Origin: Eledone cirrhosa
Lineage: Eukaryota
Direction of reading: 5' to 3'
NCBI GenBank assembly: GCA_964016885.1
Contig: CAXHJY010001209.1
Coordinates: 1 to 64,000, forward strand
DNA length: 64,000 bases
Below the pieces are notes generated by a model that was not told the origin of the DNA, did no database searches, and was given only the letters and a program-made list of their open reading frames with translations. Each line of letters starts with the position of its first letter. The stretch's first letter is position 1. This document shows positions 26,009-26,315 of the stretch, in pieces. The translations under genes and the position numbers were made by a program.

Positions 26009-26015
<7 letters not shown>

Positions 26016-26315
26016 GTGAGTTTTTTTTTACAAAATGAAAAATAAACGAGGTGCCCTACACGAGAAATATATATATTTATTTGGTTCCTTTACCGGTTTC
26101 GCAGTTCTTCTGCTTTTCAAAAGGTGAGTTGAGATGGAGGGTCTGTGGTTTTTCTCACATCTGATGTGAGAAAAACCACAGACCCTCCATCTCAACTCAC
26201 CTTTTGAAAAGCAGAAGAACTGCGAAACCGGTAAAGGAACCAAATAAATATATATATTTCTCGTGTAGGGCACCTCGTTTATTTTTCATTTTGTAAAAAA
26301 AAACTCACTTTCTAA
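26009..26315. mobile_element. Perfect 307-bp palindrome between (TA)n tracts with a hammerhead in each arm
   Basis: Arms 26009-26161 and 26163-26315 are exact reverse complements with a 1-nt centre. Confidence 0.9.
26200..26237 (+). ncRNA. Minimal type I hammerhead ribozyme, U3-A8 variant (mirror copy at 26087-26124 on the minus strand)
   Basis: CCUU-UUGAAAA-GCAG[AAGAA]CUGC-GAAA-CCG-GUA|AAGG. Palindromic stem III ACCGGU; AAUAAA a few nt downstream. Confidence 0.8.

What the first reader, a model, noticed from the sequence alone, without database searches (positions are those of the whole stretch)
26009..26315. Perfect 307-bp palindrome with two outward-facing hammerheads
The 153-bp arms are identical around a 1-nt centre, so the structure is very recent or actively homogenised. 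Each strand encodes the same minimal HHR (U3-A8 compensatory core, palindromic stem III ACCGGU, GUA site) followed by AATAAA. A transcript from either strand could form a ~150-bp dsRNA hairpin or fold the ribozyme, but not both at once. It is a possible endo-siRNA source, A-to-I editing substrate or snap-back replication product (inference).
Basis: partly seen in the sequence, partly recalled or inferred. Interest (0 to 1): 0.8.

Follow-up and report, generated by a model that had tools for sequence, protein, structure and literature searches.

The report
Mirror-image stub of Penelope-like retrotransposon
The perfect 307-base palindrome and its two hammerhead-ribozyme motifs are real, but they are one copy of a very abundant repeat family, most likely the head-to-head stub that Penelope-like jumping genes are known to leave in (TA)n microsatellites, so this is an ordinary insertion by-product rather than a new RNA device.

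Summary
Observation confirmed: identical 153-nt arms around T26162, each with a minimal type I hammerhead motif (U3-A8 core, ACCGGU helix III, GUA site). The arm belongs to a high-copy family: 3,650 and 4,305 contigs of two runs and 2,645 raw reads of another sample of the species lie on it. Many copies continue upstream of the centre without a mirror; others carry an inverted arm of variable length joined at or near the same centre. A diverged relative at 46869-47181 has the same build, asymmetric, with decayed arms. Dual min-hammerheads on opposite strands, the U3-A8 core, head-to-head inversion and (TA)n targets are all published Penelope-like element (PLE) features. No reverse transcriptase is linked, so PLE membership is inferred. 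Both arms share three rare bases and an inferred ~45-50-nt deletion, so they were likely copied from one aged template. In the full hairpin the ribozyme fold is about 68 kcal/mol disfavoured. Nothing shows transcription, editing or siRNA from this locus, and the exact locus is not confirmed by reads. Verdict: new member of a known kind; low interest.

The parts
26009..26161 (-). Left arm: 3' stub of the repeat family, read outwards on the - strand
   Evidence: Exact reverse complement of the right arm
26162..26162 (.). 1-nt centre (T on +; A of C-A-G on -). Head-to-head junction; predicted transcription start of the parent terminal repeat
   Evidence: Loose ends behind 26163 in X1 (38 contigs), X2 (39) and X21 (311 reads) show the parent continuing upstream, with an A/T-only hexamer 31-26 nt before this A on the element strand; start site is inference
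26163..26315 (+). Right arm: 3' stub of a high-copy PLE-like family, ending ...CTAA against (TA)n
26200..26237 (+). Minimal type I hammerhead motif: helix I 4 bp, core UUGAAAA (U3-A8), helix II 4 bp, palindromic helix III ACCGGU; predicted cut after A26233
   Evidence: Pattern scan with shuffles; folding
26087..26124 (-). Mirror copy of the hammerhead motif
26243..26248 (+). AATAAA (mirror at 26076-26081 on -); not distinguishable from background
   Evidence: 129 AATAAA in the window, both strands
26251..26260 (+). Place where many family copies carry about 45-50 extra nt that both arms of this copy lack
   Evidence: Loose ends behind 26251 (32 and 26 contigs, 503 reads) and before 26260 (42, 46, 2 contigs, 125 reads); depth dip at 26255-26268. 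Length inferred from the overlap of two 30-letter loose ends
25940..26009 (.). Left target microsatellite, (AT)35, 100% pure
   Evidence: TRF
26315..26437 (.). Right target microsatellite, AT-type, 85% matches; hides any target-site duplication
   Evidence: TRF
46869..47181 (-). Diverged relative with the same build: 120-nt inverted arms (115/120 identical), 73-nt unpaired middle holding a decayed hammerhead; junction at the position homologous to the palindrome centre; short arm starts at the GTA triplet
   Evidence: 75% over 65 nt; alignment score 70 against a maximum of 42 in 200 shuffles

Best explanation
The palindrome is one copy of a high-copy, hammerhead-motif-bearing repeat family sitting in a (TA)n microsatellite, and it is most likely a recent Penelope-like retrotransposon stub whose two arms were copied head-to-head from one template during insertion. 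Shown: the family, its copy number, its upstream continuation, and sibling copies with inverted arms of variable length. Inferred steps: (1) a short RNA starts near the centre, from a TATA-like promoter in the terminal repeat of an aged, partly deleted copy; (2) the reverse transcriptase/GIY-YIG protein of an autonomous PLE cuts AT-rich DNA and copies the RNA from its ...CTAA end to its 5' end; (3) the second arm arises by fold-back self-priming of that cDNA, or by priming from the other target strand on the same RNA, and here also ran to the 5' end, leaving a 1-nt centre. The hammerheads are passengers. They would need a second, same-sense copy to form helix III (dimer fold), and in a read-through transcript they would be locked in the hairpin.
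For: High copy number: 3,650 (X1), 4,305 (X2) and 85 (X4) contigs and 2,645 X21 reads laid at >=85%. The parent continues past the centre unmirrored (loose ends behind 26163 in X1, X2, X21). Asymmetric siblings: 13 of the 15 listed joints (20 in all) skip from 26155-26172 to 26201-26279. Near-symmetric siblings with 4-8 gaps cross the centre (X1 record 1; X2 records 9 and 10), so the centre differs between copies. The in-window relative has the same build and a homologous junction. Five hammerhead-type element ends examined besides the mirror arm all end ...TAA against TA. Both arms share G26270 (A in 99.9% of X1 depth and 210 of 212 X21 reads), T26278 (G in 98.6%; 289 of 304), A26303 (C in 95%; 297 of 314) and the missing segment, so they came from one template. 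The cofolded dimer MFE is the strand-swapped hammerhead form, -22.5 kcal/mol; the version with A17 free is -21.1. Literature: min-HHRs in pLTRs, the U3-A8 variant and dual motifs 100-700 bp apart on opposite strands (PMC4209133); inverted 5'-truncated copy and (TA)n targets (PMC8557442); head-to-head palindromes at inverted junctions read as self-priming, TATA plus Inr in the pLTR (PMC3846280); a PLE protein cuts and extends both strands at AT-rich sites (PMC11167929).
Against: No RT or GIY-YIG sequence is linked: the 150 longest of 195 unmasked stop-free stretches gave only a mariner HTH and one weak PAN hit in Pfam, and no genome is held. The locus itself is not read-confirmed; the best run holds 0.49 of 77 sampled words of 25440-26330. 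The junction clustering at 26160-26165 (10 of 13) is partly built in, because the reference stops matching the parent at 26163 and 9 of 13 rows have 'between: not known'. Three rare bases plus a deletion are too many for RT errors, so an aged source locus must be assumed, and it was not found. The extra base between A9 and G10.1 and the long helix II typical of PLE min-HHRs are absent. No TSD or 30-40-nt tail is visible.
Confidence: 0.65

Rival explanations
1. Same PLE-like origin, but the mirror was perfected afterwards at the DNA level: an aged single or asymmetric copy was re-copied by fold-back or template-switch repair between the fragile (TA)n runs, or its arms were homogenised by hairpin repair.
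For: It explains mirrored rare bases and the deletion without a source locus. The left (AT)35 is 100% pure and the right run 85%, as if one side were newly synthesised. Quasi-palindrome correction is established knowledge (recalled, no call).
Against: 7 of 8 other inverted pairs in the window keep arm mismatches, including those with 1-2-nt spacers (74/79, 55/56, 24/25). The centre coincides with the junction position of sibling copies and of the relative. Pure TA runs are common in the window.
Confidence: 0.15
2. Assembly or polishing artefact: the true locus has one arm or two diverged arms, made identical by read fold-back or by ambiguous mapping during consensus.
For: No listed piece matches the exact centre cleanly (1 of 24 listed bridges it, with 9 mismatches and 4 gaps). 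PMC8557442 notes that such structures trouble assemblies.
Against: The mirror stops 9 nt into the microsatellites and the outer flanks differ, whereas a read fold-back would mirror the flank too (inference). Inverted siblings occur in public contigs and raw reads. The same assembly keeps mismatched arms in 7 of 8 other pairs.
Confidence: 0.08
3. A hairpin MITE or fold-back DNA transposon (MADE1/Stowaway-like, recalled) with long terminal inverted repeats and a TA target, the hammerhead being incidental.
For: Perfect inverted arms inside TA; best Rfam match is the mir-548 hairpin model at 66.5 bits, below its gathering score of 90.
Against: Family copies continue unmirrored beyond the centre, and inverted arms vary in length. 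The window's mariner TIRs (41326-42219) are not among the arm's listed BLAST hits. The motif is a complete hammerhead, seen twice in 30 shuffles.
Confidence: 0.05
4. A non-LTR retrozyme monomer (circular-RNA-forming, hammerhead-bearing repeat) that happened to insert inverted.
For: Short, non-coding, type I hammerhead with palindromic helix III; retrozymes are reported as pLTR-derived (10.64898/2026.07.22.740005).
Against: No head-to-tail tandem here: BLAST of the arm finds only the two arms and one diverged relative. The core is a minimal U3-A8 variant with a 4-bp helix I.
Confidence: 0.04
5. A selected host element: a dsRNA hairpin for endo-siRNA or A-to-I editing, or a hairpin/ribozyme switch.
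For: A read-through transcript would form a 152-bp hairpin of -266.6 kcal/mol.
Against: It is one of thousands of family variants, with no sign of locus-specific conservation. The ribozyme state is about 68 kcal/mol disfavoured, so it is no switch. No gene was detected nearby. No listed X4 piece spans the centre.
Confidence: 0.03

Closest known systems
Minimal hammerheads (min-HHR) in pLTRs of metazoan Penelope-like elements (Cervera & De la Pena 2014, PMC4209133; parts 1-2 of 4 of the text read)
   Same: Type I topology, short helix I, U3-A8 core variant, G10.1-C11.1 pair, small palindromic helix III suited to a dimer, mostly solitary truncated copies, dual motifs 100-700 bp apart on opposite strands.
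   Different: Helix II is 4 bp rather than 6-8; no extra base between A9 and G10.1; with U3 and A17 the predicted MFE pairs the scissile base; no flanking RT ORF seen.
Inverted-pLTR insertion unit of endonuclease-bearing PLEs (Arkhipova et al. 2013, PMC3846280; Craig et al. 2021, PMC8557442; passages read)
   Same: Head-to-head inverted 5'-truncated copy, palindrome at the junction, TATA/Inr-like motifs in the terminal repeat, AT-rich or (TA)n target that hides TSDs.
   Different: Here the unit is only the two pLTR stubs, fully symmetric with a 1-nt centre, with no ORF, no direct tandem copy and no 30-40-nt tail. Naiads, the best-described (TA)n-targeting clade, lack canonical HHRs, so another clade (e.g. 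Neptune) is more likely; clade not tested.
Poseidon element PAc of Anolis (PMC11167929; main text read)
   Same: Supplies the mechanism assumed here: cleavage and extension of both strands at AT-rich DNA; hammerhead in the pLTR.
   Different: PAc has a C3-G8 core, its ORF starts at helix II, and its hammerhead cuts only with protein and is not needed for insertion in vitro; none of this was testable here.
Animal non-LTR retrozymes (bioRxiv 10.64898/2026.07.22.740005; passages read)
   Same: Short non-autonomous hammerhead-bearing repeats related to pLTRs.
   Different: Retrozymes are typically head-to-tail tandems or monomers; this copy is a head-to-head pair.

Membership tests
Penelope-like element (EN+), truncated pLTR insertion | ORF with PLE reverse transcriptase and GIY-YIG endonuclease in the parent element | not testable with these tools
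   No genome held; only 30 letters of upstream parent sequence shown; no RT hit in 150 of 195 window stretches; a 24-nt motif gave 0 hits in metagenome and viral contigs
Penelope-like element (EN+), truncated pLTR insertion | Hammerhead motif near the 3' end of the terminal repeat | tested here: met
   +26200-26237, 78 nt from the element end
Penelope-like element (EN+), truncated pLTR insertion | Head-to-head inverted 5'-truncated copy with variable arm length | tested here: met
   13 skip joints with variable landing sites; relative at 46869-47181
Penelope-like element (EN+), truncated pLTR insertion | Fixed 3' end and AT-rich or (TA)n target | tested here: met
   Both arms end ...CTAA in (TA)n; the relative and two other hammerhead-type elements end ...TAA at TA
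Penelope-like element (EN+), truncated pLTR insertion | Partial tandem (direct pLTRs), optional 30-40-nt tail, TSD | tested here: inconclusive
   Not seen at this locus; a TSD cannot be resolved in (TA)n. An unrelated ~190-nt family in the window shows a one-sided extension of about 80 nt
Metazoan min-HHR (Cervera & De la Pena 2014) | Core N3-U4-G5-A6-N7-N8-A9 with 3-8 pairing, G12-A13-A14, U16.1-H17 | tested here: met
   UUGAAAA / GAA / U-A; no variant row at 26204-26211 or 26225-26228 at the 5% cut-off in four runs
Metazoan min-HHR (Cervera & De la Pena 2014) | Palindromic helix III allowing a dimer fold | tested here: met
   ACCGGU self-duplex -8.3 kcal/mol; swapped dimer -21.1 against -5.8 per monomer; unchanged in the relative
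Metazoan min-HHR (Cervera & De la Pena 2014) | Extra nucleotide between A9 and G10.1; enlarged helix II (typical features of the consensus) | tested here: not met
   G26211 follows A26210 directly; helix II is 4 bp
Metazoan min-HHR (Cervera & De la Pena 2014) | Covariation in helices I and II | tested here: inconclusive
   Against the one relative: 2 of 8 pairs compensated (C-G to T-A, G-C to T-A), 2 broken, 4 unchanged, and A13 changed to C
Active hammerhead ribozyme | Self-cleavage 3' of H17 | not testable with these tools
   Needs an assay. Fold with the core held open has P about 0.015 for the motif alone and 0.002 for the arm; A17 pairs with U3 in the MFE
MITE / fold-back DNA transposon | Constant, symmetric terminal inverted repeats in family copies | tested here: not met
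   Unmirrored upstream continuation and variable arm lengths
Non-LTR retrozyme | Head-to-tail tandem units giving circular RNA | tested here: inconclusive
   No tandem at this locus; the rest of the genome and circular RNA could not be tested

The most novel reading that the evidence does not exclude
The inversion junctions of this family record the RNA's two natural 5' ends: the long arm stops at the promoter start (the palindrome centre) and the short arm preferentially starts at the hammerhead cut site. The genome would then hold thousands of fossil read-outs of in vivo cleavage by a PLE min-hammerhead, with the perfect palindrome being the case where both arms came from uncut RNA. Support: 5 of 15 landing sites fall at 26231-26236 (cut after 26233; P about 0.004 if uniform over 78 places, window chosen after seeing the data, one row with 30 interposed letters dropped), and the relative's short arm starts at its GTA. 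Against: only 1 of 8 other inverted pairs in the window starts within 3 nt of a cut site; RT pausing or microhomology at the ACCGGT palindrome would give the same pattern; PMC11167929 found no RNA reads ending at the cut site.
Probability: 0.15. Interest if true: 0.5.

Novelty: new member of a known kind. Interest (0 to 1): 0.15.

Why it matters
As it stands it matters little: it is another stub of a known insertion type, and earlier notes of this scan describe the same kind in other genomes. Its use is as material. The PLE insertion cycle and the role of the pLTR hammerhead are still open (PMC8557442, PMC11167929), and a family with thousands of inverted stubs would let one map both junction ends genome-wide. 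That would test self-priming against two-strand priming, and whether the ribozyme cuts in vivo. If the host is a coleoid cephalopod (my guess from recalled SINE types, not tested), such hairpins would be plausible ADAR substrates, but nothing singles out this locus.

Tried and rejected
Whole genome: not held, so no copy census and no search for the source locus or autonomous partner. Rfam: nothing at gathering level; miRNA matches at E<=10 rejected as generic hairpin matches below cut-off. Pfam on 150 of 195 unmasked stop-free stretches: no RT or GIY-YIG. A 24-nt hammerhead motif: 0 hits in metagenome contigs and viral contigs. Earlier findings: nothing by sequence, by place or by the cephalopod-worded queries. 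The fall in depth towards the centre was rejected as evidence of a family 5' end, because the reference lacks the parent's upstream sequence and the same edge effect would arise anyway. The 457 X21 molecules ending at 26129 were read as a restriction-site pile-up of the RAD library (inference), not a biological end; this library is also biased against palindromic copies, so the share of mirrored copies cannot be estimated. A splice-donor/branch-point reading of the short arm (GTA... to ...CTAA) was considered and left as untested speculation. Weak BLAST hits at 11845-11866, and the stretches 40430-40840 and 10380-10950, do not clearly beat shuffles (36 vs max 34, 28 vs 38, 36 vs 40). Paper searches returned no description of this family; the library lacks most subscription papers and repeat databases, and no supplements were read, so it may already be annotated.

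Full report
Observation. The stretch 26009-26315 is a perfect palindrome: two 153-nt arms around T26162, with the match extending 9 nt into the self-complementary (TA)n flanks and ending at G26325. Shuffles of the window gave perfect arms of at most 11-39 nt in 10 trials. Each arm, read outwards, holds CCTT-TTGAAAA-GCAG-AAGAA-CTGC-GAA-ACCGGT-A-AAGG (+26200-26237, -26087-26124). This is a type I hammerhead with a U3-A8 core, a 4-bp helix II, a palindromic helix III and a GUA site. The scan gave 2 hits in 30 shuffles and none with such a helix III. Rfam does not recognise it. The AATAAA is there, but it is one of 129 in the window.

Setting. About 46% of the window is tandem repeat. Pfam found only a mariner transposase remnant and one weak PAN hit among the 150 longest of 195 unmasked stop-free stretches. 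No genome is held. The SINE types look octopod to me; that is recall and was not tested. The palindrome sits between (AT)35 and an AT-type run.

It is a family member. Three runs of one sample hold 0.49, 0.31 and 0.30 of 77 sampled words of 25440-26330. On 26122-26318 at >=85% identity, 3,650 (X1), 4,305 (X2) and 85 (X4) contigs and 2,645 raw RAD reads of another sample with the same species label (X21) were laid. First, many copies are not mirrored at the centre: 38 and 39 contigs and 311 reads run on into a shared upstream sequence. On the element strand that sequence has an A/T-only hexamer 31-26 nt before the central A of C-A-G, which I read as TATA plus initiator (inference; the base before the hexamer is not shown). 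Second, other copies have an inverted arm of variable length: 13 of 15 listed joints (20 in all) skip from 26155-26172 to 26201-26279. Ten of the 13 start at 26160-26165, but this is partly built in, because the reference leaves the parent at 26163 and 9 rows have unknown letters between. Third, near-symmetric siblings cross the centre with 4-8 gaps (X1 record 1; X2 records 9 and 10), so the centre differs between copies. Only 1 of 24 listed pieces bridges the centre by the tool's 31-nt rule, and it is a different copy; the exact locus remains unconfirmed.

A relative in the window. At 46869-47181 lies a diverged element (75% over 65 nt; score 70 against a shuffle maximum of 42). It has 120-nt inverted arms with 5 mismatches, a 73-nt unpaired middle holding a decayed hammerhead, a junction at the position homologous to our centre, and a short arm that starts at the GTA triplet. 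Against it, 2 of 8 helix I/II pairs are compensated, 2 broken and 4 unchanged, which is weak evidence. Unrelated short elements in the window have the same build, with whole or half hammerhead-type motifs, inverted 5' arms and TA flanks. Of 8 other inverted pairs measured, 7 have arm mismatches, so arms are not generally homogenised; at 4% divergence a clean 153-nt arm would have P about 0.002.

Both arms come from one template. The window copy differs from the family majority at G26270 (A in 99.9% of X1 depth, 210 of 212 X21 reads), T26278 (G in 98.6%, 289 of 304) and A26303 (C in 95%, 297 of 314). It also lacks an inferred 45-50 nt that many copies carry between 26251 and 26260. All are mirrored. 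That is too much for RT error, so either an aged, deleted copy was transcribed and re-inserted recently (preferred), or an old insertion was re-copied at the DNA level. I could not look for the source locus.

Folding. The whole palindrome folds into a 152-bp hairpin (-266.6 kcal/mol). Forcing the hammerhead costs about 68 kcal/mol, and the same holds for a transcript that has only just passed the motif. The motif alone forms helix II (P about 0.92) and helix I (about 0.55), but U3 pairs with the scissile A17 in the MFE. Two same-sense copies cofold into the strand-swapped dimer (-22.5; -21.1 with A17 free). The two arms are on opposite strands, so they cannot be each other's dimer partner. There is no switch; the ribozyme is a passenger.

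Comparison. PMC4209133 (parts 1-2 of 4 read) describes min-HHRs in PLE pLTRs, the U3-A8 variant, palindromic helix III, dual motifs 100-700 bp apart on opposite strands, and no cleavage by the one monomer tested. PMC8557442 (passages) describes the adjacent inverted 5'-truncated copy, (TA)n targets and hidden TSDs. PMC3846280 (passages) reports head-to-head palindromes at inverted junctions, attributes them to self-priming, and notes TATA and Inr in a pLTR. PMC11167929 (main text) shows a PLE protein cutting and extending both strands of AT-rich DNA, with a hammerhead that is protein-assisted and dispensable in vitro. The retrozyme preprint (passages) links retrozymes to pLTRs. So the structure works like a PLE insertion stub. 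Membership rests on motif and architecture; the defining RT/GIY-YIG ORF could not be tested, and two typical min-HHR features are absent. Five paper searches found no description of this family; supplements and repeat databases were not seen. Earlier AI notes on other genomes reach the same reading; they are unchecked and not independent support.

Most novel reading. Five of 15 short-arm landing sites lie at 26231-26236, around the predicted cut after 26233 (12 skip joints after dropping one with 30 interposed letters, plus 3 rows from the between-letters table; P about 0.004, window chosen post hoc). The relative fits this too. It could be a fossil trace of in vivo cleavage. But only 1 of 8 other pairs in the window fits, pausing or microhomology at ACCGGT would mimic it, and the Anolis study saw no such RNA ends. 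Probability 0.15.

Verdict. Real in the assembly, most likely a young PLE-like head-to-head stub (0.65; 0.80 with the DNA-level mirroring variant), a new member of a known kind, interest 0.15.

Noticed in passing
window 46869-47181: Older relative of the palindrome family: asymmetric inverted structure whose short arm starts at the hammerhead's GTA triplet.
   Followed up: yes
window 14215-14406, 24286-24478, 45055-45244, 47843-48075, 4918-5057: A ~190-nt family in (TA)n with what looks like the 3' half of a hammerhead (GAAAC, long self-complementary helix III, GTC), an inverted 5' arm usually centred in helix II, and a one-sided extension of about 80 nt; both arms of each copy share that copy's variants.
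   Followed up: partly
window 10541-10587 (-): A second complete type I hammerhead motif with U3-A8 core and GUC site, followed by AATAAA and a ...ACTAA end at (TA)n; no inverted arm seen.
   Followed up: partly
window 42242-42359 and 37820-37870: Two further short inverted structures with hammerhead-type motifs: C3-G8 core with CAATTG helix III (arms 45/48), and a 3' half motif with the mirror centred in helix II (24/25).
   Followed up: partly
window about 41150-41260 (-): Hammerhead-like motif with CTGATGA core, long imperfect helix II and ACGTACGT helix III, ending ...TTAA at TA; read by eye.
   Followed up: no
window 41326-42219: Mariner-type DNA transposon remnant with ~103-bp terminal inverted repeats (99% alike) and a 265-aa frame hitting Pfam HTH_48.
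   Followed up: partly
window 9404-9591, 15077-15268, 15528-15713, 22562-22748, 34394-34598, 39824-40011 and fragments; 4656-4845, 5847-6035, 32117-32293, 53600-53793: Two ~190-nt interspersed families that look like tRNA-derived SINEs, octopod-like by recall; two fragments of the first lie inverted at 25553-25802, just left of the finding.
   Followed up: no
window 47629-47699: Small inverted pair (30/33, 5-nt spacer) containing CTGATGA on both arms; no complete hammerhead made out.
   Followed up: no
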